Below are positions 6,650 through 51,555 of a stretch of 64,000 bases of DNA, in pieces. Made by a program: the position numbers and the translations under genes. The notes below the pieces were generated by a model. That model was not told where the DNA came from. It saw nothing but the letters and a program-made list of their open reading frames with translations, and did no database searches. This DNA is from Escherichia phage vB_EcoM_ESCO32, in the sequence record OM386658.1. The stretch is one strand, 5' to 3'. How positions within the stretch are numbered: position 1 is the first letter of the stretch; every line of letters starts with the position of its first letter.

Positions 6650-7150
6650 ATGGCTAAAGTAGTTGATGTGTTTGATATGTTACGTTTTGATGAAGGACTA
6701 AAGCTAACTGTATATCCTGATACCGAAGGGTATTGGACAGTTGGTATTGGACACCTTCTGACAAAACTCAAAGATAAAGCAGAAGCTATACGCATTCTTG
6801 ATAACTTAGTAGGTAGAAAAACCAATGGAGTTATTACTGAAGCGGAAGCTAGAAGAATCTTTGAAAGTGACGTAAAGAAAGCGATACAACAAATCCATTC
6901 AAGTACCATATTATCTCCTATTTACGATAAAGTAAGTCCTAATCGTAAAATGGCTATTATTAATATGGTATTTCAAATGGGGTTGAAAGGTGCAGAATCT
7001 TTCAAAAATAGCTTGACTTTAGTGAGTAATTCATATTATACTCAAGCCTCTATAAATTTACGTAAAAGTAAATGGTATCGCCAAACGCCTAATCGCGCAG
7101 AGCGTGTAATTCAGGTGCTTAAAACTGGAACATTAGACGCTTATAACTAA
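6650..7150 (+). CDS. e: T4-type lysozyme (endolysin, muramidase)
   Basis: 166 aa; near-collinear with T4 lysozyme: MLRFDEGLKLTVYPDTEGYWTVGIGHLLTK...NMVFQMG...SKWYRQTPNRAERVIQVLKTGTLDAY. Confidence 0.9.
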   Translation: MAKVVDVFDMLRFDEGLKLTVYPDTEGYWTVGIGHLLTKLKDKAEAIRILDNLVGRKTNGVITEAEARRIFESDVKKAIQQIHSSTILSPIYDKVSPNRKMAIINMVFQMGLKGAESFKNSLTLVSNSYYTQASINLRKSKWYRQTPNRAERVIQVLKTGTLDAYN

Positions 7151-7152
7151 AC

Positions 7153-7174
7153 AAAGGGGCGAAAGCCCCTTTTA
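7153..7174 (+). terminator. rho-independent terminator
   Basis: GGGGC-GAAA-GCCCC hairpin plus TTTT directly after lysozyme stop. Confidence 0.6.
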
Positions 7175-15297: not shown

Positions 15298-16287
15298 ATG
15301 AAAGTTTTAAGTCTTTTTGATGGTATGTCAGGAGGAATGCTTGCGCTAAAAAGTGCAGGTATTGAAGTAGATACATATTATGCTTCAGAATTAGACAAAT
15401 TCGCCATAGCTGAAAGCCAAGCAAATTTTCCAGATATTATTCAGTTAGGTGATGTTACAAAATGGAGAGAATGGGATATTCCGTGGGGAGAAATTGATCT
15501 TTTGTTAGGTGGTAGTCCGTGTCAAGGCTTCTCTTCTTCTGGTAAGGGTTTGAACTTTCAAGATCCGCGATCTAAGCTATTCTTCGAATATGTTGAGATT
15601 CTTGAACATATTAAAAAGTTTAACCCTAATGTTAAGTTCATGCTTGAAAACGTTAAGATGAAAGTGGAGTGGGAAAACGTGATCACAAGTTACTTAGGTG
15701 TTGATCCCGTATTCATTAACTCCGCAGATTTCACGGCACAAAATAGACAACGTTTATACTGGTGCAACTGGGAAATAAAACCTTGGGATATTACCAATGA
15801 AGTGTTGCAAGATATCATTGAAGATGATAGTATCGTAGACAGAGATAAGGCTTATTGCATAGATGCAAATTATGCCAAAGGTGGTAATATAGAACAGTAT
15901 TTTGAAAAGAGTCGCAGACAACTGGTTTTTTATCCGGCAGCAATATATGGGCGTAGAATTAATGAAAATGGTAAACGTAGTACATCTAAAACTGATCGTT
16001 TGGTACATTGTTTGGAAGTTCAGGACAGTGAAAAAACTCGTTGCCTCACGACTGTGCCTAAAGACGTACTATTAGCCTACATTCCACCTGGAAGATATCT
16101 AGATGCCTTTGAAAAATTGAGTGAAGGCGTACATTATAGAAAGTTAACGGTTAAAGAGTGTTGCCGCTTGCAAGGTGTGCCAGATGATTACTTTAAAGTG
16201 AGTAGTAACACACAAGCATATAAGATGTTAGGCAATGGTTGGACTATACCTGTCATTGCACATATTCTTAAATGTATGGAGGAATAA
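15298..16287 (+). CDS. DNA (cytosine-5)-methyltransferase
   Basis: 329 aa; motif I LSLFDGMSGG, motif IV GGSPCQGFS, motif VI ENV, C-terminal RLQGVPDDY and GNGW. Confidence 0.85.
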   Translation: MKVLSLFDGMSGGMLALKSAGIEVDTYYASELDKFAIAESQANFPDIIQLGDVTKWREWDIPWGEIDLLLGGSPCQGFSSSGKGLNFQDPRSKLFFEYVEILEHIKKFNPNVKFMLENVKMKVEWENVITSYLGVDPVFINSADFTAQNRQRLYWCNWEIKPWDITNEVLQDIIEDDSIVDRDKAYCIDANYAKGGNIEQYFEKSRRQLVFYPAAIYGRRINENGKRSTSKTDRLVHCLEVQDSEKTRCLTTVPKDVLLAYIPPGRYLDAFEKLSEGVHYRKLTVKECCRLQGVPDDYFKVSSNTQAYKMLGNGWTIPVIAHILKCMEE

Positions 16288-18429: not shown

Positions 18430-18436
18430 CTTAACC

Positions 18437-18460
18437 AAGGGGGCGAAAGCCCCTTTTCTT
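18437..18460 (+). terminator. rho-independent terminator
   Basis: GGGGC-GAAA-GCCCC hairpin plus TTTT. Confidence 0.6.
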
Positions 18461-19128: not shown

Positions 19129-19184
19129 AATACCTCCTATTGTTTATGCTAAAAGTGTTTATAACATATAAAGAGCATATATAC

Positions 19185-19210
19185 AAGAAAACCCGCCGAA
19201 GCGGGTTTAT
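19185..19210 (-). terminator. rho-independent terminator (minus strand)
   Basis: ACCCGC-TTCG-GCGGGT hairpin with T-run on minus strand, just downstream of gene 19214..19537. Confidence 0.55.
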
Positions 19211-20172: not shown

Positions 20173-20772
20173 TTACTTCTCCTTTTTAACTATAATGGCT
20201 TCTTCATTCAGAGTAAACAGCAAGGAAGATGTATCACCAACACACCTTGCACCTGGAATGAGTTCTAAAATTTTAGAGGATATAGCAATAGTAGTGTCAT
20301 CCAGTACGTATTCCCCAGGTAACAATCTTAATGTTATTGGAAAATCTACAGATGCCAGACCAGAGAACATCCCATCATTCAGAAGAATAACTTCTAAACC
20401 GCTATCTTCTTGTTGTGCATTATGCACTTTTTCAGGTAAGAAGTCAATACATTGATTTAAAATTTCTACATCTAATTCTACACCAGTCCTAGCCTTATAA
20501 ACTCTAGCCAAATCTATGATCCGAGAATCAATGCTGGCGTAAGGAGATTCCAAGTGTTTTGGGTCAATAGGAGCAACGCGTAATTTACTATCGAGAGATA
20601 CCCACGTTACAATCCACATTTCACCAACCCCAGGTTGATCTCGCGCAGTAAGGAATTCTACTAATGCTCCAGGATTAGGCATTATGTAATCTTGTGTGAT
20701 CAACATGTTCTTCACTCGCAAAAGCATTCCTGGCTTTAGTAAGCCCTTCTCACCACTCCAATATTCTTTCAT
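20173..20772 (-). CDS. hypothetical protein
   Basis: Track ORF 20173..20817 trimmed to ATG with CAGGAGTG SD. Confidence 0.55.
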   Translation of the reverse strand: MKEYWSGEKGLLKPGMLLRVKNMLITQDYIMPNPGALVEFLTARDQPGVGEMWIVTWVSLDSKLRVAPIDPKHLESPYASIDSRIIDLARVYKARTGVELDVEILNQCIDFLPEKVHNAQQEDSGLEVILLNDGMFSGLASVDFPITLRLLPGEYVLDDTTIAISSKILELIPGARCVGDTSSLLFTLNEEAIIVKKEK

Positions 20773-22214: not shown

Positions 22215-22483
22215 TTGTCAGTATCCTTTTCAATAAAGCCTGTGGTTTTACAAGGTACACATTCATACATTTGTCCAACATCTGCAACCACCCAACCCAT
22301 TCCATTGCAATAAGGACAGATTGTTTTGTTCTCTTTAGCATACACAGCCAGAAGTCTTTCTTCTAGCTTGTTGTAATCAGCAAGAAGAACATAGTCTCCT
22401 TCTGGATCTGGTACAATATCACATTGACCAGCAGCACCTTGGCTGTACACCTCTAAATCATATCGTGTAACCATTATTCCCAC
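22211..22483 (-). CDS. hypothetical Cys-containing protein
   Basis: Track ORF; CPYCNG...CVPCK pairs. Confidence 0.5.
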   Translation of the reverse strand: MGIMVTRYDLEVYSQGAAGQCDIVPDPEGDYVLLADYNKLEERLLAVYAKENKTICPYCNGMGWVVADVGQMYECVPCKTTGFIEKDTDK

Positions 22484-22692
22484 TCCGCAATCAGTTTTGG
22501 ATTTTCTGCACGAGAATAGAATGTTGTAATGTCACCGTAAGTGTACTCTTGTTCCGACAGTTTTACAAGAGAGATCATTTCACGATCTGGAGTACCAGGA
22601 ATCCAGTCAAATACAGCAACGCCACGTGGTGTTACATAGAAACCAGATGTATTACCCGTAAACTTATCTTTTCCTTTATATAATTTGTACAC
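22474..22692 (-). CDS. hypothetical protein
   Basis: Track ORF, GTG start after GAGGAG. Confidence 0.5.
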   Translation of the reverse strand: MYKLYKGKDKFTGNTSGFYVTPRGVAVFDWIPGTPDREMISLVKLSEQEYTYGDITTFYSRAENPKLIAEWE

Positions 22693-22751
22693 TTTCTACT
22701 CCTCATAGATAGAATCTATTAAAAACCTGCTATCAATCGGTATAAACAGTT

Positions 22752-22818
22752 TTACTTTTCGTAAAAAACATGCTACCCTAATCTTATATACCGAGCGATA
22801 GCGAGGTAGAGAATATTC
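22752..22818 (+). repeat. conserved intergenic element, copy A (promoter-like)
   Basis: 18-nt core AAAAACATGCTACCCTAA plus GAGCGA.AGCGAG.TAG shared with copy B at 51214..51280; reads as TTTACT - 17 nt - TGcTACCCT extended -10. Confidence 0.45.
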
Positions 22819-31091: not shown

Positions 31092-31461
31092 ATCAGACTC
31101 CTTTATAAATTTACGTTTCATGCCACACATCATACAGCATCTTTTCATCTATTACAAGAACAGCAACATAGAAACATCATTAATGGAGGGCTTAGTATAG
31201 GAATTAGTATAGGTATTCCCTATCAATTATTCTATATATACCTATTATTTTTAACACACCCCTTTGTACATAATATAGACAAATAAATATCTATGCCACA
31301 AAAATTTTCCGGTATACCCGATTTATTTCGACACACCCTTTTTCATAAGCGTAAAGTCAATAATATCAATAACTTGCCGCAAAATACTGCTCGCTTGCGA
31401 GAGGTGCTTAACGCGATTTTCAGCGCCCCCCGATTTCTGCCGACCGTCCCCCTCAAATATC

Positions 31462-31480
31462 AATGAGAATAATTATCATT
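31462..31480. promoter_or_regulatory. Fur-box-like palindrome
   Basis: AATGAGAATAATTATCATT, followed by TTGCAT; approx. Confidence 0.4.
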
Positions 31481-31658
31481 TGCATTATCATTCAATGACT
31501 TATAAGACTTTTGATTATTTTCTGAGCAAGAAAGGTACTACTCACAACAAAACAGATAAATTCTAAGTAAATCAATGGCTTGGCAAGTCTAAACATCTAT
31601 ATACACCTTGCCAAATGAAATGATCTGGCGTGAAATAGTGCCACCCGTGGAAGATAAC

Positions 31659-31675
31659 TGATAATGATTATCATT
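31659..31675. promoter_or_regulatory. Fur-box-like palindrome (best copy)
   Basis: ctGATAATGATTATCATTtgc matches 16 of 19 positions of Fur consensus GATAATGATAATCATTATC; preceded by GATAAC hexamer. Confidence 0.45.
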
Positions 31676-32542
31676 TGCATACTTTCTGTACTATAAAACC
31701 GACTAAAAATCAAGATAATTCTGATTTATTGCGCTTTTAAGAAAGTAGGCTCAACAAATAGGGGAATACATTGCAACAAATGAGGTATGTTATAGGGGCA
31801 ATAGTATGAAAAATCATCTATTCAGATAAAATAATTTTGCGCAATAGTGGCAATATTTTTCTTGACAAGAAAGATTTCTTTGTGTTCACATAGCGCCCCC
31901 TGGAGGGTGGCGCATTATGATCATCAGTGTCATTATTCATTTCAGTGTTATTATTCACCATGTTTATTATATGCAGCTTATATTATAGCCAATGTTCTAA
32001 ACATTAGCTAATAATAACGCACCGCAACAATGTAAGGGAATACAATATACTCGTATATTGTTGCGCTTGCAATTGTTGCAAGCTACATAAGCACAAATAA
32101 TAACTATCGGTGATGGTTATTATGTGGGGTGTGTAGTTGCGTTATTATTAGCCGCCTATGTGTCCGGCATAGGCTGCTAATGATACGCTTGCGAATTATA
32201 TTTCTTGTTATAGTTATTGTATGAAATGATTACTACATGAAATGGTTATTTAGGTAATAGATAGGGAGGTAAAGATTAGATCATAAATAGATAGGATATT
32301 AATTATTTAGCAATGTTACTAACAATTTAATAGTTACTTTGTGCAACAATTCGATAGATTATAGTTATAGTTTTAAGGGTTAGATAGATTATAGTTAGCT
32401 TAGTAATGATTTACATTGATTATTGTTGTTTAATATAAGGTTATCAATAAGATAGTAACAGTATGTTATAAATAAAAGTAAGATAATTAGCTTTAATTTA
32501 GTTAGATAACTTATTATTTTATAAGTTAGATGGTCTTAAGTT

Positions 32543-32561
32543 AAGAATGATTATCATTATT
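32543..32561. promoter_or_regulatory. Fur-box-like palindrome
   Basis: AAGAATGATTATCATTATT. Confidence 0.4.
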
Positions 32562-32597
32562 GCATTATGCAGTTTATTGCATAAATAATCAGCTATA

Positions 32598-32618
32598 AAT
32601 GAAAATGATTATCACTTA
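32598..32618. promoter_or_regulatory. Fur-box-like palindrome
   Basis: AAATGAAAATGATTATCACTT; the segment AATGATTATCACTTA recurs at about 44268. Confidence 0.4.
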
Positions 32619-33322: not shown

Positions 33323-33553
33323 TTATTTTTCAAAAAATTTTTCTGCTGTGATATTCTTCCCAGTGGGGTTAGCTACTTTCAAAATTTTATCATGTACTGG
33401 ACGCCCGAAAGAATAAGATCCGTATACAGTAAACCAATAATCGCCGTCAGGCTGTACTATTACCGCCGCATAGGGTACGCCTTTTTCGTTATTGCTGACA
33501 AAATAGATCACATTGCCGTTAATAGCCTCAGCGCGTTTAATTTGTTCGATCAT
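33323..33553 (-). CDS. hypothetical protein
   Basis: Track ORF; preceded by PeSL-like cassette. Confidence 0.55.
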   Translation of the reverse strand: MIEQIKRAEAINGNVIYFVSNNEKGVPYAAVIVQPDGDYWFTVYGSYSFGRPVHDKILKVANPTGKNITAEKFFEK

Positions 33554-33571
33554 GATATGATTCCTATATTG

Positions 33572-33632
33572 GGCGGGAAACCATTTCCCGCCTTACGTGA
33601 TACATCTTAGTATAAGGGCGATCCGGTGTCAA
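33572..33632 (-). promoter_or_regulatory. PeSL-like cassette (early promoter + 5' stem-loop)
   Basis: Minus strand TTGACA - 17 nt - TAAGAT, then perfect 9-bp hairpin GGCGGGAAA-cca-TTTCCCGCC, then SD and ATG. Confidence 0.55.
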
Positions 33633-33645
33633 TAGATAAAGTTAA

Positions 33646-33882
33646 TTATTTTGCATAATCAATAACAGCGCATATTTTATCATTTACATCTTGTAAATCA
33701 AAGGCATAGGCGATCTTGCCTTGTAATTTTCCACGGGTGAAACAGATACGATAAACGCCGTTTTTACTGTCATCTTCTGATTTTAGTATTTTTGCAACTG
33801 TTGCAATTAACAGATCATCAGAGTAAGCGATAAAACCGCCACGTAAAATAGGTGATTTTTTGAGGATCATGACTTCTTTCAT
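33646..33882 (-). CDS. hypothetical protein
   Basis: Track ORF 33646..33930 trimmed to ATG after AGGAAAAG. Confidence 0.5.
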   Translation of the reverse strand: MKEVMILKKSPILRGGFIAYSDDLLIATVAKILKSEDDSKNGVYRICFTRGKLQGKIAYAFDLQDVNDKICAVIDYAK

Positions 33883-34303
33883 TTTCTTTTCCTGTTTTCG
33901 TTTTGGGTATGTTCTACCCTCTAAAAACAATATTAAACTGTTGTGATTTATCGGTCAATAGATGAGATTGTAAAGATTTGATAGTTTATTCCTTTGATGT
34001 TTTGTTATTTAATAGATATTAGCTATCAATATATAGCGGGATCTTCCGGTGATTATCTTCCCCTGTCCCCAGGTGCCGCCCGTTCCATAATAATAATCAA
34101 AAGCAGGATAAAAGGCAAGATAAAAGGCAAATTATTCCCTATGTGCTTTAAACGCTCTAAACAGCTTTCTAACAGCTTTTTCATCCTGGCAAGGTGATTA
34201 GTCATTGTTACCTTGTTTAAGCGGTTATAATCGGTTTTAGGCTGTTTTACGCCACCTTTTACGTTTATTCTTTACGTGTTACTTCCATCGTGAAAAAAGA
34301 ATA

Positions 34304-34335
34304 CAAAAAAGGGCGCTTAGTGCGCCCCTTTCTTT
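34304..34335 (-). terminator. rho-independent terminator
   Basis: GGGCGC-TTAGT-GCGCCC hairpin flanked by A and T runs. Confidence 0.6.
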
Positions 34336-34344
34336 TACCGTGTA

Positions 34345-34734
34345 TTAATATTCGTTATAATACATCGCTAACTTTTCATCAAAAGCCGATTGACGATCTG
34401 CATACTCCCAAAACATTTCTTGATCCTGTTGTTCGTCATCATCCATCATGTTGAATTGCGCAACCTCCTGGTAAGTGATCGCCATATTATAACGATAGGT
34501 GATCTCTTCTGCGATGTTTTCCGGTAAAGATGATTCTACACTGTCTAACAGCATATTTAACATCATTTCAGCCGCTTTTTCATCATTATCAAAGCAGTAA
34601 GCAGACCATGCCGCATGATGTTTATTTTTCATCTTTGCAATCAAGCCGTTGACTAAAAAAGGCGCTACGTTGTTAACGATACCCTGTAAAGATTGGAATT
34701 TTTCAACGTTAGAAACAGAAACCAGGTTGCGCAT
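34345..34734 (-). CDS. hypothetical acidic protein
   Basis: Track ORF 34345..34770 trimmed to ATG (longer form would run through the hairpin). Confidence 0.5.
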   Translation of the reverse strand: MRNLVSVSNVEKFQSLQGIVNNVAPFLVNGLIAKMKNKHHAAWSAYCFDNDEKAAEMMLNMLLDSVESSLPENIAEEITYRYNMAITYQEVAQFNMMDDDEQQDQEMFWEYADRQSAFDEKLAMYYNEY

Positions 34735-34757
34735 AGTATTTACCTTTTTGATTACCT

Positions 34758-34816
34758 GGCGGGAAACCATTTCCCGCCTACGTGGTAAATAATACCATAT
34801 TGGGGATCGGTGTCAA
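34758..34816 (-). promoter_or_regulatory. PeSL-like cassette
   Basis: TTGACA - 16 nt - TATTAT then GGCGGGAAA-cca-TTTCCCGCC hairpin. Confidence 0.55.
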
Positions 34817-34822
34817 TACTTT

Positions 34823-35209
34823 TTATTCAATATAAATCAAATTATCTTCACCAATGTAAGCATGCACCGATGGCATTAATTTAGCTGCATTTGTTAGGCG
34901 GTTGGCGGTGTTAGTAGTGTATATTTCAGGGCGATCCCAAAAGCCTACGCCGTGACCGTTACGGGTGAAATGTAAGTCATTCCCGATCTGGTTTGCTGTT
35001 GCGCCGTCGCTCATTGCCTCAGAGATAGCAGCATCATTGGCATCACAATAAGCCGCTACGTCATGAATGATCCGCTGATGGGCTTGATCTGAAAAATCAT
35101 AATCGTCTAAGTTATCAATAAAATAGCCTTCATGATCCCTGGCGGATTCAGCAAAAATAAAGGCTTCTTTATAACCGTTGATGATTTCAATAATGATTTC
35201 AGTTTTCAT
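34823..35209 (-). CDS. hypothetical protein
   Basis: Track ORF. Confidence 0.55.
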   Translation of the reverse strand: MKTEIIIEIINGYKEAFIFAESARDHEGYFIDNLDDYDFSDQAHQRIIHDVAAYCDANDAAISEAMSDGATANQIGNDLHFTRNGHGVGFWDRPEIYTTNTANRLTNAAKLMPSVHAYIGEDNLIYIE

Positions 35210-35421
35210 GCTGTACGCTCGACAATAATAATGGTTTGCGGTATCTCGTTTTCTACTACTAACAAGGCTTTTTTCTGTGTGATAGATATTTTAACACGTT
35301 GTAAAGTAGCGGTAAAATCTTTCATTTCATTATGCGCGGATTTAGTGCAATGCCATATTTCAGGTTTACCAATTTGCAAGCCGCGTAAAAATTCTGTTTT
35401 ACCTGTCTTATTCGTGATCAT
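35206..35421 (-). CDS. hypothetical protein
   Basis: Track ORF 35206..35439 trimmed to ATG after AAGGTG. Confidence 0.5.
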   Translation of the reverse strand: MITNKTGKTEFLRGLQIGKPEIWHCTKSAHNEMKDFTATLQRVKISITQKKALLVVENEIPQTIIIVERTA

Positions 35422-35431
35422 TTGATTCACC

Positions 35432-35536
35432 TTATCCAATACCGTGGGAAGATAGGATCATGTTAGCCATAGTTGCAACCAATCCAACCGATAACACCAG
35501 GCCAACTACTACAACCGTGAAAATTTTCTCTAACAT
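35432..35536 (-). CDS. small hydrophobic peptide, 34 aa
   Basis: MLEKIFTVVVVGLVLSVGLVATMANMILSSHGIG; GAGGGTAG SD; sits behind a PeSL-like cassette. Confidence 0.35.
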   Translation of the reverse strand: MLEKIFTVVVVGLVLSVGLVATMANMILSSHGIG

Positions 35537-35554
35537 GATTCTACCCTCATTAAT

Positions 35555-35616
35555 GGGCGTTGCCTTATTGCCCCGCCCTATGTCGTACACTTTACCAGAT
35601 AACTGAATATTGTCAA
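35555..35616 (-). promoter_or_regulatory. PeSL-like cassette (variant hairpin)
   Basis: TTGACA - 16 nt - TAAAGT then GGGCG...CGCCC hairpin; approx. Confidence 0.45.
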
Positions 35617-35617
35617 A

Positions 35618-35812
35618 CTATTTTTTACAAGGGATCAGTAAACTTCTTGCTACCGCTTCACGTAAACCTTTACTTTTTATTAAATCTATTGTTGCAGGGT
35701 GGCAAGTAAAAGCCTTTGACCATTTTTGATCACCTGGTTTACGGGCGAAAATGTAAACTTCTCCGTCGATTTCATCCCAACGAGTATTGCTTGTTAGTTT
35801 TTTAAGCGCCAT
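35618..35812 (-). CDS. hypothetical protein
   Basis: Track ORF 35618..35842 trimmed to ATG downstream of hairpin. Confidence 0.5.
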   Translation of the reverse strand: MALKKLTSNTRWDEIDGEVYIFARKPGDQKWSKAFTCHPATIDLIKSKGLREAVARSLLIPCKK

Positions 35813-35835
35813 GCTGATTTCTCTTTTAGTTATGA

Positions 35836-35891
35836 GCGGCACTATTGCCGCCCTACGAAATACATTCTACCCGATTTATAATTGTTGTCAA
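35836..35891 (-). promoter_or_regulatory. PeSL-like cassette
   Basis: TTGACA - 16 nt - TAGAAT then GCGGCA-ctat-TGCCGC hairpin. Confidence 0.5.
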
Positions 35892-35892
35892 A

Positions 35893-36162
35893 CTATTTTT
35901 TCAAGCTCGACCAGTCAAAACACGGGGCGATCTCGTTAAAACTTGTGCCCTGTAAAGCACATAATTTTTTAGCAATAGCCGCCGTGACCTGGCGCTGTAC
36001 GCGCGGATCTGCTACTGATTGGAGAAAGTAGGCGGCTTTATATGTGATCATGCTTTCGCCTGTTTCCTTGTTAACGTGGTGCACGGTTTTAGCCTTATCA
36101 TCTTTTACCAGGGTGTAACCGGATTCGATGGCCTTGATTGCAACGTCCAATGATATTTTCAT
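35893..36162 (-). CDS. hypothetical protein
   Basis: Track ORF. Confidence 0.55.
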   Translation of the reverse strand: MKISLDVAIKAIESGYTLVKDDKAKTVHHVNKETGESMITYKAAYFLQSVADPRVQRQVTAAIAKKLCALQGTSFNEIAPCFDWSSLKK

Positions 36163-36181
36163 GATTTATCTCTTTATTGAT

Positions 36182-36203
36182 GGCGGGGAATACTCCCCCC
36201 GCC
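36182..36203 (-). promoter_or_regulatory. leader stem-loop (PeSL-type hairpin without adjacent -35/-10)
   Basis: GGCGGGGAA-tact-CCCCCCGCC, about 20 nt upstream of gene 35893..36162 start. Confidence 0.4.
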
Positions 36204-36210
36204 TTATTAA

Positions 36211-36381
36211 TTACTCTTCATCGTCGCCGTTGTAGTATTCAATGCCGTTTTCATCGGTTACGGTAATATTAACGCCACCGATAGCAACACGATCACGGGC
36301 AAACGTCATGGCTTCATTTAAATCTTCAGACCAAAAAATATTGTGACCTTTGCGCGATACATAAAACATAGTCGGGATCAT
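36211..36381 (-). CDS. small protein, 56 aa
   Basis: ORF below threshold; AGAAGAGAAAC SD; behind a PeSL-like cassette. Confidence 0.4.
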   Translation of the reverse strand: MIPTMFYVSRKGHNIFWSEDLNEAMTFARDRVAIGGVNITVTDENGIEYYNGDDEE

Positions 36382-36404
36382 GATTTGTTTCTCTTCTGTT
36401 GTGA

Positions 36405-36464
36405 GCGGGAAACCACTTCCCGCCCTATGTGATAAACTTTACTACGTTGTTTTTCTGCTGTCAA
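36405..36464 (-). promoter_or_regulatory. PeSL-like cassette
   Basis: TTGACA - 17 nt - TAAAGT then GCGGGAA-accac-TTCCCGC hairpin. Confidence 0.5.
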
Positions 36465-36465
36465 A

Positions 36466-36750
36466 TTATTTTTTAATGTTTTGCCCTACAAAATTGATCA
36501 CTTCCTTAAGCTGTTTCTCAGTCATGATCGTGCCTGGTAATTCTTCTTTGATTTCTTCCGGTAAATAGATATTACCGCGCCAAGTTAATAAACAACAGTT
36601 TTGATCTTCGCAGATGGAATAAGAGAAGATCCACTCATTATCATTCTCAAGCTCCCAAAAGCACAAAAAATCTTCTTTCCCTAAGTTTTCAACGGTTAAG
36701 CATAATCCGCGACGTGCTGCATAGTTGGAAAGTGCTTTTGTGATCTTCAT
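36466..36750 (-). CDS. hypothetical Cys-rich protein
   Basis: Track ORF. Confidence 0.55.
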   Translation of the reverse strand: MKITKALSNYAARRGLCLTVENLGKEDFLCFWELENDNEWIFSYSICEDQNCCLLTWRGNIYLPEEIKEELPGTIMTEKQLKEVINFVGQNIKK

Positions 36751-36769
36751 AGCTTATCTCTTCTTTTAA

Positions 36770-36832
36770 GGCGGGGAAACCATTTCCCCGCTCTATGAGA
36801 TACAATATACTACCCGTTCGGTGTGCTGTCAA
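36770..36832 (-). promoter_or_regulatory. PeSL-like cassette
   Basis: TTGACA - 17 nt - TATATT then GCGGGGAAA-cca-TTTCCCCGC hairpin. Confidence 0.55.
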
Positions 36833-37156
36833 TCAATAATCTTCAATATTTTCTACATTGACAAAAGCATGTTTATTTTCTAAGTTTTCGCCGTACCATT
36901 GCCCCATGTTGATTTCTGCGGTGCGCAACCAGGACATGCCGCGTTGTATCTTTTTACTTGCAATCTCGATCCGGCTTTTGCATAGTGCTTTCGCTTGCAA
37001 TGTAAAAACACTATTGCCCTGTAATGCTTCCAGGTCATCATGTGCAAGGCGATACTCTTTAAAGCCTGATTCTATCATTTCAATAGCATCAAGTAAACGC
37101 GCGCGATGATAGAAAAAATCAGAGTTATCCAAATAAACACCGATCACAGATTTCAT
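36833..37156 (-). CDS. hypothetical protein
   Basis: Track ORF 36833..37216 trimmed to ATG after AAAAGGG. Confidence 0.5.
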   Translation of the reverse strand: MKSVIGVYLDNSDFFYHRARLLDAIEMIESGFKEYRLAHDDLEALQGNSVFTLQAKALCKSRIEIASKKIQRGMSWLRTAEINMGQWYGENLENKHAFVNVENIEDY

Positions 37157-37256
37157 AATTTTACCCTTTTGTTTGCGGCCTTTGCCGTTTTCAAGATATA
37201 TTTTAAAGCATAACAAAAAATTGTCAAACCTTTAAAGCGTACAACTATAAAACCTA

Positions 37257-37376
37257 TTAAAACACAATATATAACAACATGGCTATAGTAGCAATATAAC
37301 ATAAAACCATGCTTGTTTTCCTTCCTTCCTCATATGCTGGATTTATTACGCTATACTGTACGGGAATAACTTTCAT
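37257..37376 (-). CDS. small protein with hydrophobic C-terminus, 39 aa
   Basis: ORF below threshold; AAGGAAAC SD; approx. Confidence 0.3.
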   Translation of the reverse strand: MKVIPVQYSVINPAYEEGRKTSMVLCYIATIAMLLYIVF

Positions 37377-37385
37377 GTTGTTTCC

Positions 37386-37481
37386 TTAATGTCTTAAAAC
37401 GTGGTTTACAATAGAAACAAGTATACAGAAGAAAAAAGATCCTGACAATAAGATCCCGAAAAATAAATGTAAATAGGGCAT
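37386..37481 (-). CDS. small hydrophobic peptide, 31 aa
   Basis: MPYLHLFFGILLSGSFFFCILVSIVNHVLRH; strong TAAGGAG SD. Confidence 0.35.
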   Translation of the reverse strand: MPYLHLFFGILLSGSFFFCILVSIVNHVLRH

Positions 37482-37485
37482 GGTT

Positions 37486-37788
37486 TTACTCCTTAAAAAA
37501 ATCATTGACAATTAAACTGATAACGCCCAGCACCAGATCACCAGGTAGCGCCGCGCTTTCGTTGTTGCTTATTTGCACTTCCTCACTAGTACCAGCATGA
37601 TAAATCGCATGGTAAGCAATAGTATAATAACCTTTCGTTATTTCTTTAAGATTAATGATTAGCACGTTATTTGTTTCATCTTGAAACAATTTAGCGGTGA
37701 TAGTATTGTTTTCTTTTACACTATCGACTTTTATTGATGGATCAGTTACACCAGAAAAAAGAAAAAACGTTTTAGCTATGCCGTTCAT
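37486..37788 (-). CDS. hypothetical protein
   Basis: Track ORF; AAAGGAG SD. Confidence 0.6.
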   Translation of the reverse strand: MNGIAKTFFLFSGVTDPSIKVDSVKENNTITAKLFQDETNNVLIINLKEITKGYYTIAYHAIYHAGTSEEVQISNNESAALPGDLVLGVISLIVNDFFKE

Positions 37789-37835
37789 GTAGTTCTCCTT
37801 TGTTGTGTGTATCTTATAACGTGCTTTCTATGTTG

Positions 37836-38237
37836 TCAATCTTTTATCTCGGTGCATTTTGCTAGGGTATACGTTGCAAGTGCTGACACTAGTTTTTCAT
37901 TGCTACGATCTGCGGCTGTACTGTGTACTTTTTGAATACTTTTTAGCCACGGCGTAAAGTTTTGAGTAGTAAGCACACTAGTAATAATTTCACATGGCAC
38001 GTTTTCATTTAAACCGTTAGCTATAGATTTATCTATTTTTGCCGTTAGTTGTGTAACAGCACCATAAGCGATCATGTGTGAATCCTCCATGATTTCATCG
38101 GGGATCGCATTATTAATGATCATCACGTTTTCCATTGCATCAACGGCGCTTAATTCTGCTACTGTGGAGGATATTGCCGCGTGAGATGTTCCAACCATGC
38201 CAAAAGAGATTAAACCAGCGATCAATAATTTTTTCAT
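37836..38237 (-). CDS. predicted secreted/periplasmic protein (signal peptide)
   Basis: Track ORF trimmed to MKKLLIAGLISFGMVGTSHA-AISS: n/h/c regions with AxA-type cleavage site. Confidence 0.55.
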   Translation of the reverse strand: MKKLLIAGLISFGMVGTSHAAISSTVAELSAVDAMENVMIINNAIPDEIMEDSHMIAYGAVTQLTAKIDKSIANGLNENVPCEIITSVLTTQNFTPWLKSIQKVHSTAADRSNEKLVSALATYTLAKCTEIKD

Positions 38238-38245
38238 TTCTTGCC

Positions 38246-38428
38246 TCATATATGTTTTATTGAGATTATATTGTCACTATATACAACGTTTTTCAACGTG
38301 TCAATAAAAATCTTATTGCCTTCAATCCCCAGGATCACGCCGCTAGTTATGAAGCCATATTGATCACGGTATCGGGCGCATAACCTTTGCCCCTGGGCTA
38401 GTGCCTTGCTTATTTCTTCTAATCTCAT
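38246..38428 (-). CDS. hypothetical protein
   Basis: Track ORF; AGGAG SD. Confidence 0.55.
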   Translation of the reverse strand: MRLEEISKALAQGQRLCARYRDQYGFITSGVILGIEGNKIFIDTLKNVVYSDNIISIKHI

Positions 38429-38517
38429 TTTAAAGCTCCTGTAAAGCCGTCTAACGTTGATTTATAGGCTTGCCCTGGCGTTACCATTGCCTATGGGTAA
38501 CAAGCCTCTATATAAGC

Positions 38518-38546
38518 TAAAAGGGCGCTTATTGCGCCCTTTTTTG
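38518..38546 (-). terminator. rho-independent terminator
   Basis: GGGCGC-TTATT-GCGCCC hairpin plus T-run. Confidence 0.6.
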
Positions 38547-38684
38547 TTATTCGTTCCAGTATCTTTTTGTGCTGCGATCTCTTTTTGTTTTGTTCCGCTT
38601 ATCGCCTTTCTTGGTGATCTCTTCGTTCCAATTTTTACGCGCCTTGCTGCGGTTGAATTTTTCGATCTGCTGTGATGCGTTCAT
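38547..38684 (-). CDS. small basic protein, 45 aa
   Basis: ORF below threshold; AGAGGAAAAAAC SD and own terminator. Confidence 0.4.
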   Translation of the reverse strand: MNASQQIEKFNRSKARKNWNEEITKKGDKRNKTKRDRSTKRYWNE

Positions 38685-38699
38685 GTTTTTTCCTCTTAA

Positions 38700-39059
38700 T
38701 TACGCCACGTTATGCTGTTTTGCCAGGATTACGATCATGCTTGCAATATATAACCAATAATTTTCCCGCTCACGGGTAACGGTTGTTTCTTTGCTTGTTT
38801 CTTTTATGTACTTCCATTCAATTAACAAGTGATCGATCTCGTTATAATCAAAAGCAATATTGACTTCTGACGGTAAACCTTGTAACCATGAGGCTATTGC
38901 CTTGATCACGTTATAATTGTAACGTTTTTGATTATCGGGATACCAGTATTCAGAGTTAAAACGGCGCATCAGTTCGGTGATCTTTTCTTTTTCGGTTGTA
39001 GTACCATCAAAAGAAATAGCCGACACAATGTAAGTTTTAATTGCTTTTACTGATTTCAT
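38700..39059 (-). CDS. hypothetical protein
   Basis: Track ORF; behind PeSL-like cassette. Confidence 0.6.
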   Translation of the reverse strand: MKSVKAIKTYIVSAISFDGTTTEKEKITELMRRFNSEYWYPDNQKRYNYNVIKAIASWLQGLPSEVNIAFDYNEIDHLLIEWKYIKETSKETTVTRERENYWLYIASMIVILAKQHNVA

Positions 39060-39079
39060 AATCTTATCTCTTTATTGAT

Positions 39080-39139
39080 GGCGGGAAACCATTTCCCGCC
39101 GTTGTTGTTACTTTACTTATAAATGATGCTACTGTCAAA
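39080..39139 (-). promoter_or_regulatory. PeSL-like cassette
   Basis: TTGACA - 17 nt - TAAAGT then GGCGGGAAA-cca-TTTCCCGCC hairpin then conserved leader ATCAATAAAGAGATAA. Confidence 0.55.
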
Positions 39140-39145
39140 CGGATA

Positions 39146-39316
39146 TTATTTGTTTTTTAACGTTAATGTTCCCAGCTTATCAGCGTGACGCAGACCAGGA
39201 AAGATCCATTTTCCTGATTCATCTTTTACCGGGGCTTTAAGCGTAGCGCCCAGATTGGCGGCATTAACTTTACGTGCAACGTTGCGAGCGGCTTCACGGG
39301 TGGCGAAAGTGATCAT
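39146..39316 (-). CDS. small protein, 56 aa
   Basis: ORF below threshold; AGAGGAAAACACC SD; behind PeSL-like cassette. Confidence 0.4.
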   Translation of the reverse strand: MITFATREAARNVARKVNAANLGATLKAPVKDESGKWIFPGLRHADKLGTLTLKNK

Positions 39317-39340
39317 GGTGTTTTCCTCTTCTCTTTGTTA

Positions 39341-39401
39341 GGCGGTGGGCTATTCCACCGCCTTGATGAATATAGTTTACTTTATTTTGTTAAGATTGCA
39401 A
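39341..39401 (-). promoter_or_regulatory. PeSL-like cassette (variant)
   Basis: TTGCAA - 16 nt - TAAACT then GGCGGTGG-gctatt-CCACCGCC hairpin. Confidence 0.45.
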
Positions 39402-39407
39402 GCGGTT

Positions 39408-39623
39408 TTATGAAATAATTGTCAAAGTAAAATCATAATCTTTTGACAGTTTATATTGTACCTTGTTCCCGTAATAGTCACCTTTACGTAAAGATCCGCG
39501 AATACCTATTACATCCTTTACATCTTTAAGATTTTTCACGCCTGTAATGTCTTTATTGAAATGATCGTGATCAGAAAATAAAACCTGCTTTGCATTTTTT
39601 AACAATGTGCGGATATTAGCCAT
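39408..39623 (-). CDS. hypothetical protein
   Basis: Track ORF. Confidence 0.55.
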   Translation of the reverse strand: MANIRTLLKNAKQVLFSDHDHFNKDITGVKNLKDVKDVIGIRGSLRKGDYYGNKVQYKLSKDYDFTLTIIS

Positions 39624-39645
39624 TTGATAATCTCTCTCACTATGA

Positions 39646-39701
39646 GCGGCACTATTGCCGCCCTATGAATTACATTTTACTAATTTTAGTTATCTTGTCA
39701 A
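39646..39701 (-). promoter_or_regulatory. PeSL-like cassette
   Basis: TTGACA - 16 nt - TAAAAT then GCGGCA-ctat-TGCCGC hairpin. Confidence 0.5.
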
Positions 39702-39709
39702 TATTATTT

Positions 39710-39937
39710 TTAGTTTAATGCATCCAGGCACAACAAGCGATCAACATTTAGATCGGTTAGGCTAATCGTTGGCACCTGGTAGGATTCGATATATTCGACG
39801 CTCGACCACTGACCAAAATTAGCGACCGCCCAGCTATTCAAGGAAGAGTGAAGATCATCCCCTTTCTTCTCTGTGATGACTGCTACTACCTGGGAGCTTC
39901 CAACCGTACCGGATACGCGAACAATAACGATAGCCAT
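39710..39937 (-). CDS. hypothetical protein
   Basis: Track ORF. Confidence 0.55.
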   Translation of the reverse strand: MAIVIVRVSGTVGSSQVVAVITEKKGDDLHSSLNSWAVANFGQWSSVEYIESYQVPTISLTDLNVDRLLCLDALN

Positions 39938-39959
39938 AATTATAACCTTTCTTTGATTT

Positions 39960-40019
39960 GGCGGGAAACCATTTCCCGCCCTATGTGATAAACTATACCA
40001 GAATATAAAACGTTGTCAA
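39960..40019 (-). promoter_or_regulatory. PeSL-like cassette
   Basis: TTGACA - 16 nt - TATAGT then GGCGGGAAA-cca-TTTCCCGCC hairpin. Confidence 0.55.
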
Positions 40020-40028
40020 CTGTTTTTA

Positions 40029-40268
40029 TTACATTCCAACCATAGCGGCACGGATTGCAGTTTTACTATACTTGAATCCGTCCGGTGTTTTATCTTGTCC
40101 AGTTTGCTCCAGGAATAACATCATATCACGCGCGGCATCATTCTTATTTGTATTAGCTGCGATAAATTCACGCGCAAGATTATAAAAACCTTCATCGTTG
40201 TTGATCCAAAGGCTTACATTCCAATGAGTTTTGTTTTTGTGACCGTTGTACATTTTAGATTTAGCCAT
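40029..40268 (-). CDS. hypothetical protein
   Basis: Track ORF 40029..40325 trimmed to ATG downstream of hairpin. Confidence 0.5.
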   Translation of the reverse strand: MAKSKMYNGHKNKTHWNVSLWINNDEGFYNLAREFIAANTNKNDAARDMMLFLEQTGQDKTPDGFKYSKTAIRAAMVGM

Positions 40269-40292
40269 GATGTTAATCTCTTTTTCAGTGAG

Positions 40293-40351
40293 GCGGGAAC
40301 TATTCCCGCTCTCTATGCAAAACATTATACGCCTTTAAACCTAGTTTGCAA
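40293..40351 (-). promoter_or_regulatory. PeSL-like cassette
   Basis: TTGCAA - 16 nt - TATAAT then GCGGGAA-ctat-TCCCGC hairpin. Confidence 0.5.
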
Positions 40352-40370
40352 GTGCTTTTTAAAAATATGC

Positions 40371-40601: not shown

Positions 40602-40621
40602 TTTATTATACCTAGTTATAG

Positions 40622-40683: not shown

Positions 40684-40689
40684 TGCTTT

Positions 40690-41472: not shown

Positions 41473-41475
41473 CCC

Positions 41476-42292: not shown

Positions 42293-42294
42293 GA

Positions 42295-51213: not shown

Positions 51214-51280
51214 TTGACTTTTTCAGAAAAACATGCTACCCTAAACCTGAAAGGTGACGAGCGAAGCGAGTTAGTATTCT
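51214..51280 (+). repeat. conserved intergenic element, copy B (promoter-like)
   Basis: TTGACT - 17 nt - TGcTACCCT with the same 18-nt core AAAAACATGCTACCCTAA and GAGCGAAGCGAGTTAG as copy A; followed by hairpin GTTCCTG...CAGGAAC and gene 51349. Confidence 0.5.
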
Positions 51281-51348
51281 CTATAGATATTGTTCCTGTC
51301 ACTCATGGAGGGGCAGGAACAGAGTATATTACTGTATAGGAGAATGCT

Positions 51349-51555
51349 ATGGATATTACTACACTAAAGTTTATACTTCTCTTCTTACTTATAGTTATAG
51401 GATTAATTGTTATACCCTATCTATATGTCTACATGTTATCTCGTAAGTATGGTTATGAGCGTATACCATTTTACTATTTAATACCTGTCTTAGTTATCTA
51501 TCTATTTCTCTTTTGTAGATATTGTCCTGAACTAGTCCTGAACATTGGAAGTTAG
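51349..51555 (+). CDS. small membrane protein
   Basis: Track ORF; AGGAGAA SD; two hydrophobic helices. Confidence 0.55.
   Translation: MDITTLKFILLFLLIVIGLIVIPYLYVYMLSRKYGYERIPFYYLIPVLVIYLFLFCRYCPELVLNIGS

What the first reader, a model, noticed from the sequence alone, without database searches (positions are those of the whole stretch)
22752..22818. About 65-bp promoter-like element present twice, 28 kb apart
Copies at 22752..22818 and 51214..51280 share an 18-nt identical core AAAAACATGCTACCCTAA plus GAGCGA(t/a)AGCGAG(g/t)TAG. Both read as an extended -10 promoter (TGcTACCCT) with a -35-like hexamer 17 nt upstream, in the same orientation on the plus strand. Copy B precedes plus-strand gene 51349. 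Copy A points antisense into the minus-strand gene block, so it may make an antisense or small RNA.
Basis: seen in the sequence. Interest (0 to 1): 0.5.

Follow-up and report, generated by a model that had tools for sequence, protein, structure and literature searches.

The report
Conserved phage promoter with leader hairpin
The repeat is real: it looks like a host-type promoter joined to an unusually stable short hairpin, kept at three fixed places in phi92-like phage genomes and in some chromosomal islands, but nobody has yet shown that it is transcribed.

Summary
The window comes from a phi92-like coliphage (Justusliebigvirus, 99.7% identical to phage outra). It holds exactly two copies of the element. 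A third copy (C) lies outside the window.

The shared unit runs about 60 nt from the -35 hexamer to the end of the first hairpin, and about 95-115 nt with a second hairpin and AGAGTATAT. Its parts are:
- a -35 hexamer, TTGAC(T/A), or TTTACT in copy A;
- a 17-18 nt spacer;
- an extended -10, TG(C)-TACCCT-AA;
- a pyrimidine/purine start position 7 nt further on;

That box is the core of a hairpin. It has a variable, covarying outer stem, tandem G·A/A·G pairs, two G-C pairs and a GNA or GNNA loop (Hirao's GCGNAGC "mini-hairpin").

Related genera (phAPEC8-like phages, Klebsiella and Citrobacter phages) keep the element at the same three positions:
- A is antisense in the early block.
- B follows gp209, mostly ahead of a small membrane-protein gene.
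- C sits in a divergent gap ahead of the NAD, tRNA and structural block.

Flanking proteins are only 35-42% identical. Integrase-primase islands of Enterobacteriaceae also carry the element.

Best reading: a sigma-70-type promoter with a 5' leader hairpin. No transcription data exist, so this stays an inference. Copy A as an antisense promoter is plausible.

The parts
22751..22756 (+). Copy A, -35-like hexamer TTTACT
   Evidence: Lies 17 nt upstream of TACCCT. The homologous position is TTGAC(T/A) in 19 of 21 family members.
22771..22781 (+). Copy A, extended -10 TGC-TACCCT plus the invariant AA
   Evidence: The T, the G and TACCCTAA are invariant in 21 distinct copies; the C between them is 90% or more. 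It lies within the 18-nt identical core.
22786..22786 (+). Copy A, predicted transcription start (A, 7 nt after the -10 hexamer); inferred
   Evidence: A pyrimidine/purine step at this position occurs in 18 of 21 copies. No experimental data.
22789..22808 (+). Copy A, hairpin HP2: TACC / GA-GC-GATA-GC-GA / GGTA
   Evidence: RNA fold ((((..((....))..)))) at -7.9 kcal/mol, z = -3.8. Outer-stem covariation. The core GCGATAGC fits the GCGNNAGC mini-hairpin rule (PMC13037366).
22816..22843 (+). Copy A, second hairpin HP3 (TTCCATG-TTATA-CATGGAA) followed by AGAGTATAT, both shared with copy B
   Evidence: Compensatory changes appear in relatives: TTTCATG/CATGAAA in L066 and GTTTCAT/ATGAAAC in phAPEC8.
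51214..51219 (+). Copy B, -35 hexamer TTGACT
51234..51244 (+). Copy B, extended -10 TGC-TACCCT plus AA
51249..51249 (+). Copy B, predicted transcription start (G); inferred
51255..51273 (+). Copy B, hairpin HP2: TGAC / GA-GC-GAA-GC-GA / GTTA (contains a G·T wobble)
   Evidence: RNA fold .((((..((...))..)))). at -3.5 kcal/mol. Covariation. The core GCGAAGC is the prototype mini-hairpin.
51292..51329 (+). Copy B, hairpin HP3 (GTTCCTG...CAGGAAC) followed by AGAGTATAT; part of a structured 5' leader
   Evidence: The 99-nt leader folds at -32.9 kcal/mol, z = -4.1. It is conserved in B-type copies of other phages.
51349..51555 (+). Gene downstream of copy B (phi92 gp208 family, 68-aa predicted membrane protein); AGGAG ribosome-binding site at 51338-51342
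   Evidence: The homolog behind the B-type copy of Klebsiella phage KP13-26 is 35% identical. The same N-terminus MD(V/I)..T follows the B-type copies of most of the other phages examined.
22474..22692 (-). Gene next to copy A on the opposite strand (phi92 gp024 family); marks the syntenic position of A-type copies
   Evidence: The phAPEC8 neighbour is 37% identical and sits in the same relative position and orientation.

Best explanation
The element is a conserved promoter-plus-leader module that host RNA polymerase would read. It has a near-consensus -35 hexamer (TTGACT/A), a 17-18 nt spacer, and an extended -10 (TG, C at -13, TACCCT). The -10 core and the discriminator are C-rich. A pyrimidine/purine start site lies 7 nt further on.

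The transcript would begin, after about 0-9 unpaired bases, with a very stable hairpin (HP2). HP2 has a variable outer stem, tandem sheared G·A pairs, two G-C pairs and a GNA or GNNA loop.

Each phi92-like genome has three such modules:
- B drives a structured leader and the gp208-family gene at the head of the replication and nucleotide-metabolism block.
- C fires from the divergent gap towards the NAD-salvage, tRNA and structural block.
- A fires against the direction of the distal early genes, so it would make an antisense transcript or interfere with early transcription.

What is shown: the sequence architecture, its copy number, strand-specific covariation of HP2, and positional conservation across genera.

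What is inferred: that transcription starts here, that HP2 acts in the RNA (as a 5' stabiliser or a protein-binding tag), and what the copy A transcript does.
For: - Non-random repeat. There are exactly three copies per genome, at 63.7-78 bits against 13.7 or less for everything else.
- Promoter signature in 21 distinct copies: -35, TG and TACCCTAA are invariant or nearly so, spacing is 17-18 nt, the spacer sequence varies, and Y-1/R+1 occurs in 18 of 21.
- The same phage has about 25 ordinary sigma-70 promoters, each followed by a 5' hairpin. Promoter plus leader hairpin is therefore its general design.
- HP2 is predicted by RNA folding in A, B and C. On the alignment, 73% of cells pair against 32-54% when the partner is slid. 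The covariation score is 0.299 against 0.143, reached by 0 of 500 shuffles. Pair 7-22 reads C-G in 12 copies, A-U in 7 and U-A in 1. The contiguous stem averages 3.1 bp against 1.9 in permutations.
- G·T wobbles and the G·A pairs exist only on the + strand. The structure therefore belongs to the RNA-like strand.
- The HP2 core starts 6-11 nt after the predicted start in every copy.
- Selection: the A-type copy in phAPEC8 keeps its antisense position next to a gp024 homolog of 37% identity. B-type copies follow gp209 homologs (41.6%) and mostly precede gp208 homologs (35%). C-type copies always sit in the divergent gap.
- The sequence upstream of the -35 hexamer is unrelated between copy types.
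Against: - No transcription start data exist.
- TACCCT matches TATAAT at only 3 of 6 positions, so the generic promoter scan did not list either copy.
- About half of the copies have a small, weak hairpin (HP1) that spans the predicted start site. It could not form in an RNA that starts there.
- The loop repertoire (GAA, GCA, GATA, GAAA, GTAA) fits the DNA mini-hairpin rule GCGNAGC/GCGNNAGC at least as well as the RNA GNRA rule. The review reports that the RNA version is much less stable than the DNA version.
- Copy A has no gene and no terminator downstream.
- The exact invariance of the -10 core is more than sigma-70 recognition alone would demand.
Confidence: 0.6

Rival explanations
1. A replication-initiation signal. 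Transcription from the promoter forms an R-loop that primes DNA synthesis, as at the T4 oriF/oriG middle-promoter origins. The extraordinarily stable DNA mini-hairpin forms on the displaced non-template strand. There it keeps the loop open or acts as a single-strand initiation (primase-loading) signal, as at the G4, St-1 and alpha3 origins or at ssiA.
For: - The core GCGNAGC/GCGNNAGC is exactly the DNA mini-hairpin reported at the primase sites of phages G4, St-1 and alpha3, at ssiA, and in N4 hairpin promoters.
- The loops include non-GNRA GATA, which fits the DNA rule.
- The structure is specific to the non-template strand.
- Copies A and C are followed by AT-rich non-coding DNA. C-type leaders carry 2-4 GATC motifs.
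- An origin would not need a gene downstream, which would explain copy A.
- In the islands the module sits ahead of a primase operon.
Against: - Copy B runs straight into a ribosome-binding site and a gene, with no AT-rich unwinding region.
- Cumulative GC skew only follows gene orientation and shows no inflection at A.
- A separate iteron-like non-coding region at 44354-44574 is a more conventional origin candidate.
- Three origins sharing an invariant -10 core is not a known design.
- Nothing here tests replication.
Confidence: 0.12
2. The promoter is real, but HP2 is the cis-site of a dedicated regulator. It could be a nut- or put-like RNA element, or the binding site of a phage protein, that makes the polymerase termination-resistant or otherwise co-regulates the three transcription units. 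The chromosomal islands would copy it in order to respond to these phages.
For: - The hairpin core and its fixed distance from the start are invariant across genera, which is more than stability alone would need.
- The copies sit near or at the heads of long gene blocks that contain terminator-like hairpins.
- The order, a conserved pyrimidine-rich box TGCTACCCTAA followed by a GNRA-like hairpin, loosely recalls lambda boxA-boxB (own knowledge; a lead only).
- The same module lies ahead of the operon of integrase-primase islands.
Against: - The boxA-like stretch overlaps the -10 and would lie upstream of the predicted start, so it would not be in the RNA.
- It does not match the boxA consensus.
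- No N-, Q- or other antiterminator homolog was identified. Flanking proteins have no known family.
- The same hairpin core is a hugely abundant repeat in unrelated bacteria. This argues for a generic structural optimum rather than a specific protein site.
Confidence: 0.12
3. Not a promoter. It would be a strand-specific structured element (HP1, HP2 and HP3) acting within longer + strand transcripts or in single-stranded DNA, for example as a processing, stability or recombination site. The -35/-10 resemblance would then be incidental.
For: - HP1 spans the predicted start and shows compensatory variants: AAAC/GTTT, AACC/GGTT, ACCC/GGGT, ACCT/AGGT.
- The -10 core is a weak match, 3 of 6.
Against: - C-type copies lie in divergent gaps, and A-type copies lie behind opposite-strand genes. 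No upstream + strand transcript is expected to cover them.
- The conserved TTGAC at a fixed 17-18 nt with TG and Y/R at +1 would be an unlikely coincidence.
- HP1 is weak (0 to -4.4 kcal/mol) and absent from about half of the copies, including window copy A.
Confidence: 0.07
4. A chance repeat or a neutral recent duplication with no function.
For: Only two copies in 64 kb; AT-rich genome.
Against: - Chance expectation is about 0.
- The element is conserved at syntenic sites in genera whose flanking proteins are 35-42% identical.
- It shows compensatory changes.
Confidence: 0.01

Closest known systems
E. coli sigma-70 extended -10 promoters (TGnTATAAT class), including the -13C variants favoured by sigma-S
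   Same: The -35 hexamer TTGACT/A, the 17-18 nt spacer, TG at -15/-14, T-12, A-11, T-7, C at -13 and a purine start 7 nt downstream.
   Different: The -10 core is an invariant CCC and the discriminator is C-rich. The whole TG(C)-TACCCT-AA stretch is almost frozen across genera: every base is invariant except the C at -13, which is G in phAPEC8 and A in L023. Ordinary promoters, including about 25 others in this window, vary at these positions. Sigma-factor preference was not tested.
5'-terminal stem-loops that stabilise bacterial and phage mRNAs (the ompA 5' UTR type; own knowledge)
   Same: A hairpin within a few nucleotides of the predicted 5' end. The phage's early promoters follow the same plan.
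   Different: The hairpin core is sequence-invariant (GA-GC-GNA-GC-GA) rather than merely any stable stem. The unpaired 5' leader may reach 6-9 nt in some copies, longer than is optimal for protection. No half-life data exist.
Hirao mini-hairpin DNA, d(GCGNAGC)/d(GCGNNAGC), at the G4, St-1 and alpha3 primase origins, at ssiA and in N4 virion-polymerase promoters (PMC13037366)
   Same: The core sequence fits the rule in almost every copy: GCGAAGC, GCGCAGC, GCGATAGC, GCGAAAGC, GCGTAAGC. The one exception is the Citrobacter Tr1 B-type copy, GCGAATGC.
   Different: Here the mini-hairpin is extended by tandem G·A pairs and an outer stem. It lies downstream of a sigma-70-type promoter in a double-stranded DNA phage. 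No giant N4-type virion polymerase is annotated in the genome. Neither DNA hairpin formation nor priming was tested.
Lambda nut (boxA-boxB) and HK022 put antitermination sites (own knowledge)
   Same: A promoter-proximal hairpin with a GNRA-like loop, near or at the head of long transcription units.
   Different: There is no boxA match in the transcribed part. No N-like protein was identified. The hairpin is closer to the start than nut or put sites are.
Phage antisense RNAs from internal promoters (lambda oop, P22 sar, P1 c4; own knowledge)
   Same: Copy A is a promoter-like element facing against a block of genes.
   Different: No terminator defines a short RNA. Rfam shows no match. The same module also drives sense genes at B and C.

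Membership tests
Sigma-70 extended -10 promoter | A -35 hexamer resembling TTGACA, 16-18 nt upstream of the -10 | tested here: met
   TTGACT (B), TTTACT (A) and TTGACA (C). The spacer is 17 nt in the window copies and 17-18 nt in 21 family members.
Sigma-70 extended -10 promoter | TG at -15/-14 and a -10 hexamer with T-12, A-11 and T-7 | tested here: met
   TGCTACCCT. The T, G and TACCCT are invariant in all 21 copies. The hexamer matches TATAAT at 3 of 6 positions, which are the three critical ones.
Sigma-70 extended -10 promoter | A mapped transcription start 6-8 nt downstream, dependent on the holoenzyme | not testable with these tools
   Only the sequence preference could be checked: pyrimidine/purine at positions 6/7 in 18 of 21 copies.
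Hirao mini-hairpin (GCGNAGC / GCGNNAGC) | Sequence GCG-N(1-2)-AGC | tested here: met
   GCGATAGC (A), GCGAAGC (B), GCGCAGC (C). Variants GAAA and GTAA occur in relatives. The one exception is GCGAATGC in the Tr1 B-type copy.
Hirao mini-hairpin (GCGNAGC / GCGNNAGC) | Extraordinary thermal and nuclease stability of the single strand | not testable with these tools
   Nearest-neighbour DNA parameters give 0 to -2.5 kcal/mol. The review states that such models do not capture this motif.
Lambda-type nut site | A boxA sequence (CGCTCTTA / TGCTCTTTAACA) in the transcript, upstream of a boxB hairpin | tested here: not met
   The only similar stretch, TGCTACCCTAA, overlaps the -10 and lies upstream of the predicted start. 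It differs from the consensus.
Lambda-type nut site | A cognate N-like antiterminator encoded by the phage | not tested
   Neighbouring small proteins, including the basic 90-aa gp209, have no known family. No genome-wide search was done.
N4-type hairpin promoter | A giant virion RNA polymerase in the genome, and a hairpin upstream of the start | tested here: not met
   The largest annotated proteins in phage outra are under 1000 aa, and none is annotated as an RNA polymerase. The hairpin lies downstream of the predicted start.
T4-type promoter-primed origin | A promoter followed by an AT-rich DNA-unwinding element | tested here: inconclusive
   AT-rich non-coding DNA follows A and C but not B. 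GC skew is uninformative.
Any Rfam RNA family | A covariance-model match at or near the gathering score | tested here: not met
   There are no matches in the window at gathering score. Around copy A and the island copy there are only noise hits at E up to 10. Nothing was found at the bacterial hairpin loci.

The most novel reading that the evidence does not exclude
The invariant -10 region and GA-zipped hairpin form the recognition tag of a dedicated regulatory circuit. A phage factor would bind the nascent hairpin, or its non-template DNA form. This would switch on the three units, or make them termination-resistant, including an antisense unit that shuts off early genes. Integrase-primase islands of Enterobacteriaceae would have copied the tag so that their replication operon fires only when a Stephanstirmvirinae phage infects. 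That would be a helper-sensing satellite promoter.
Probability: 0.12. Interest if true: 0.7.

Novelty: new variant of a known kind. Interest (0 to 1): 0.42.

Why it matters
The transcription programme of phi92-, phAPEC8- and rV5-type phages is almost unstudied, although these broad-host-range phages are used in therapy collections. This element gives three precisely placed, testable start sites that form a promoter class distinct from the roughly 25 ordinary early promoters. It includes a conserved antisense unit in the early region.

It also shows a natural use of the tandem-GA/mini-hairpin motif next to a promoter. And it links lytic phages to small chromosomal islands through a shared regulatory module, which is how satellites are often recognised.

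If it turns out to be only a promoter with a stabilising leader, it is useful for annotation: spurious ORFs such as phAPEC8_0059 are currently called across it. It would not be surprising, though.

Tried and rejected
- **tRNA and Rfam.** tRNA and tmRNA scans and Rfam at gathering score found nothing in the window. Permissive Rfam scans around copy A, the island copy and eight bacterial loci gave only noise.
- **Bacterial and metagenome hits.** Scans with TACCCTAA...CGAGCG..GCGAG returned more than 200 loci from unrelated bacteria. I first took this as a universal module. Inspection showed that most belong to a very abundant repeat, tgtcat(t/c)cCGAGCGnAGCGAGg(a/g)atc. A further 59 hairpin cores without TACCCTAA lie in the same 1.3 Mb. 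Telomere-like CCCTAA arrays add more hits. The Desulfovibrio and Planctomycete multi-copy hits are single repeat families. The TACCCTAA association outside phages and islands is therefore best explained by chance.
- **Third repeat member at 39107-39137** (family D12). It is the reverse strand of an ordinary early promoter, not a family member.
- **GC skew as an origin test.** It follows gene orientation only.
- **HP1, the small hairpin across the start site.** It is significant in sum (p about 0.001 against shuffles). It is weak, absent from half the copies, and the test is inflated by relatedness. I left it unexplained.
- **DNA-parameter folding.** Uninformative for this motif.
- **Literature.** No paper holds the motif or maps transcripts of these phages.
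- **Host mimicry.** The island leader has no match in 5,426 complete E. coli genomes.
- **Island gene in phages.** The first island ORF has no tblastn match in phage records.
- **Flanking proteins.** All belong to families of unknown function.

Full report
**What the window is.** Both copies and their surroundings are 97-99.7% identical to about 55 phi92-like coliphages (Justusliebigvirus, Stephanstirmvirinae). The closest is phage outra, MN850645.1. The window is the reverse complement of the phi92 and outra records. Genes run on the + strand at 1-18.7 kb, on the - strand at 18.9-48.3 kb (small early genes), and on the + strand again from 48.4 kb. Copy A lies in the 207-nt gap between phi92 gp023 and gp024, both on the - strand. 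Copy B lies in the 163-nt gap between gp209 and gp208, both on the + strand. Neither record annotates anything there.

- The 18-nt core occurs exactly twice. No further site appears at up to 3 mismatches, against 0.19 expected. The 31-nt version that includes the -35 hexamer also occurs twice, against 0.00 expected.
- The second box differs by a 1-nt indel (GAGCGATAGCGAG versus GAGCGAAGCGAG), not by a substitution.
- The similarity continues into a second hairpin and the nonamer AGAGTATAT. The shared unit is therefore about 95-115 nt rather than 65.

**A third copy exists.** Scanning the whole outra genome found copy C at 15894-15955. This is outside the window, in the divergent gap between outra_29 and outra_30. 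That gap heads the block carrying nicotinate phosphoribosyltransferase, 17 tRNA genes, terminase and the structural genes. A covariance model built from 21 distinct copies scores the three sites at 63.7-78 bits and nothing else above 13.7 bits in 145 kb. There are three copies per genome and two in this window.

**Promoter architecture.** BLAST and pattern scans recovered the element from these sources:
- Phapecoctavirus (phAPEC8);
- Klebsiella phage KP13-26;
- Citrobacter phage Tr1;
- several IMG/VR and metagenome contigs of about 150 kb.

In the alignment of 21 distinct sequences:
- the TTGAC of the -35 hexamer is invariant or nearly so (TTTAC only in the A copies of phi92-like phages);
- the spacer is 17 nt, or 18 nt in five copies, and varies in sequence apart from a T-rich start and an A-rich end;
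- T, G and TACCCTAA are invariant, and the C at -13 is nearly so.

Seven nucleotides after the hexamer, 18 of 21 copies have a pyrimidine followed by a purine. Conserved hexamers at a fixed distance across a variable spacer are the classical signature of a sigma-70 promoter. The TG and the C at -13 place it in the extended -10 class. The -13C preference of sigma-S is my own knowledge and is a lead only.

The window's other promoters have ordinary AT-rich -10 hexamers. About 25 TTGACA-N16-18-TAnnnT sites lie on the - strand between 33.6 and 43.6 kb (47 matches in all against 12.7 in shuffles). Each is followed at about +5 by a GC hairpin, GGCGGGAAATGGTTTCCCGCC. Promoter plus 5' hairpin is therefore this phage's general design. 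The element under study is a distinct, rare subclass with a frozen, C-rich -10 and discriminator. The generic scan missed it because TACCCT scores only 3 of 6.

**The GAGCGA.AGCGAG box is a hairpin.** It reads: outer stem / G A / G C / G(N)NA loop / G C / G A / outer stem. RNA folding returns exactly this shape for A (-7.9 kcal/mol, z = -3.8), B (-3.5) and C (-5.5).
- The outer stem differs between copies but stays complementary: TACC/GGTA in A, TGAC/GTTA in B, TTAC/GTAG in phAPEC8, TTCC/GGGG in Tr1, TTAAC/GTTAA in L023 and TCCTATC/GATAGGA in L022.
- On the alignment, 73% of cells pair, against 32-54% when the partner is slid.
- The covariation score is 0.299 against 0.143, reached by 0 of 500 shuffles.
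- One pair reads C-G in 12 copies, A-U in 7 and U-A in 1. Another is paired in 22 of 23 through U·G, U-A, C-G, A-U and G·U.
- The sequences are related, so these numbers overstate independence. Even so, several changes are true double substitutions.
- The G·T wobbles and the tandem G·A pairs exist only on the + strand. The complement would carry A·C and C·T mismatches. This rules out a cruciform or a palindromic protein site. It points to the RNA or to the non-template DNA strand.
- The inner part, GCGNAGC or GCGNNAGC, is the "mini-hairpin" of Hirao and colleagues. The review reports it as extraordinarily stable as DNA and less so as RNA. It reports the motif at the G4, St-1 and alpha3 primase origins, at ssiA and in N4 hairpin promoters (PMC13037366).
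- The core begins 6-11 nt after the predicted start in every copy. The hairpin would therefore sit 0-9 nt from the RNA 5' end.

**Three conserved positions.**
- A-type copies (window, L066, L012, phAPEC8) always face a block of opposite-strand genes. In phAPEC8 the neighbour is a gp024 homolog of 37% identity.
- B-type copies follow a gp209 homolog (41.6% identity in L071). In most of the phages examined they lie 60-95 nt ahead of a gp208-family membrane-protein gene (35% identity in KP13-26).
- C-type copies sit in the divergent gap ahead of NAD-salvage genes. They are followed by about 200 nt of AT-rich leader with GATC-containing motifs and then a second promoter.

The sequence upstream of the -35 hexamer is unrelated between copy types. 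Conservation of a non-coding unit of about 60 nt between genomes whose neighbouring proteins share 35-42% identity indicates purifying selection. It removes the chance and neutral-duplication readings.

**An unexpected relative.** The same module (-35, TGCTACCCTAA, HP2 and a related HP3) lies between an integrase gene and an operon in three other contigs. One is a Scandinavium chromosome contig (L157), one an IMG/VR contig (L021) and one an uncultured-bacterium contig (L165). The operon encodes two unknown proteins, an endonuclease VII-like protein and a P4/D5-type primase (DUF5906). An HTH repressor lies at the far end. This gene set looks like a phage satellite, but I did not test that.

**Scan hits set aside.** The metagenome and genome scans returned more than 200 loci from unrelated bacteria. 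Most belong to a very abundant repeat whose hairpin has the same GAGCG(N)AGCGA core. There the upstream TACCCTAA is best explained by chance. A further 59 cores without it lie in the same 1.3 Mb, and the hits also include telomere-like arrays and single multi-copy families. The core is evidently a widespread structural optimum. That tempers any claim that it is a specific protein site.

**Mechanism.**
- Most likely (about 0.6), these are three host-polymerase promoters whose transcripts begin with a stable leader hairpin.
- B and C feed the two large non-early gene blocks.
- A produces transcription against the distal early genes.
- The strong recognition elements combined with a C-rich -10 core and discriminator suggest a promoter limited at the opening step, and so open to regulation. 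This is inference.
- HP2 most simply protects or marks the 5' end.

Rivals that the data do not exclude are:
- a promoter-primed origin with a DNA mini-hairpin on the displaced strand (0.12);
- a nut- or put-like site, or another regulator-binding site (0.12);
- a structured element that is not a promoter (0.07). The weak HP1 hairpin across the start site favours this. The divergent and antisense contexts argue against it.

Nothing here measures transcription, and no paper in the library does.

**Verdict.** The repeat is real, non-random, conserved and larger than described. The promoter interpretation is well supported by comparison but unproven. The second box is a strand-specific hairpin. 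The element has not been described (no Rfam match, no annotation, no paper found in the library searched). It is of a familiar kind, so I rate it a new variant of a known kind, of moderate interest.

Noticed in passing
window 31449-31680, 32543-32618, 44242-44338: Fur-box-like sequences (GATAATGATAATCATTATC, up to 3 mismatches) occur 6 times against 0.04 expected. Five of the six cluster in the two largest non-coding gaps, 31.15-32.65 kb and 43.96-44.60 kb; the sixth is at 56372. They might be iron-regulated phage promoters or might titrate Fur.
   Followed up: partly
window 44354-44574: Three direct repeats of about 70-75 bp (AAATTGAACTTTTCATTTT...AAAAACTTTAAATAA) lie in a 640-bp non-coding gap next to the Fur-like boxes. 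They look like iterons and are a candidate replication origin or promoter array.
   Followed up: no
window 33550-43600, minus strand: About 25 consensus sigma-70 promoters (TTGACA-N16-18-TAnnnT) are each followed within about 5-10 nt by a conserved CATAGGGCGG motif and a GC hairpin (GGCGGGAAATGGTTTCCCGCC). This is a repeated promoter-plus-5'-hairpin cassette ahead of small early genes.
   Followed up: partly
L157 4400-5500 (Scandinavium MAG chromosome), L021 3400-9800, L165: Small integrative islands carry the phage's promoter-hairpin module between the integrase gene and the operon. The gene order is integrase, non-coding leader of about 0.9 kb, two unknown ORFs, an endonuclease VII-like gene, a P4/D5-type primase and an HTH repressor. 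They are possibly phage satellites.
   Followed up: partly
loci L024-L243 (bacterial genomes and metagenomes): A very abundant bacterial repeat, tgtcat(t/c)cCGAGCG(N)AGCGAGg(a/g)atc, shares the same tandem-GA/mini-hairpin core. It occurs in Bacteroidales, Acidobacteriota, Alphaproteobacteria, Planctomycetota and others. It has no Rfam family.
   Followed up: partly
L003 15960-16170 (outra); L017, L023, L090, L093: C-type copies are followed by an AT-rich leader of about 200 nt. It carries 2-4 AGATCT/GATC motifs (GATCTAACAGAC), a TTAATTAA, and a second sigma-70 promoter just ahead of the first gene.
   Followed up: no
L014 1470-1589 (phAPEC8 20383-20502): The annotated 39-aa CDS phAPEC8_0059 lies on the opposite strand directly over the A-type element and is probably spurious. 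Some Justusliebigvirus records likewise call hypothetical proteins over copies B or C.
   Followed up: no
window 7148-7173, 18432-18457, 63630-63655; 19175-19208, 46528-46561: Repeated intrinsic-terminator-like hairpins have tips that are also mini-hairpin sequences, for example GGGGCGAAAGCCCC followed by TTTT.
   Followed up: no
window 22780-22792, 51243-51256 and homologous sites: A small hairpin (HP1; for example ACCT-GAA-AGGT in copy B, with AACC/GGTT, AAAC/GTTT and ACCC/GGGT in relatives) spans the predicted transcription start in about half of the copies. It could not form in an RNA that starts there. Unexplained.
   Followed up: partly
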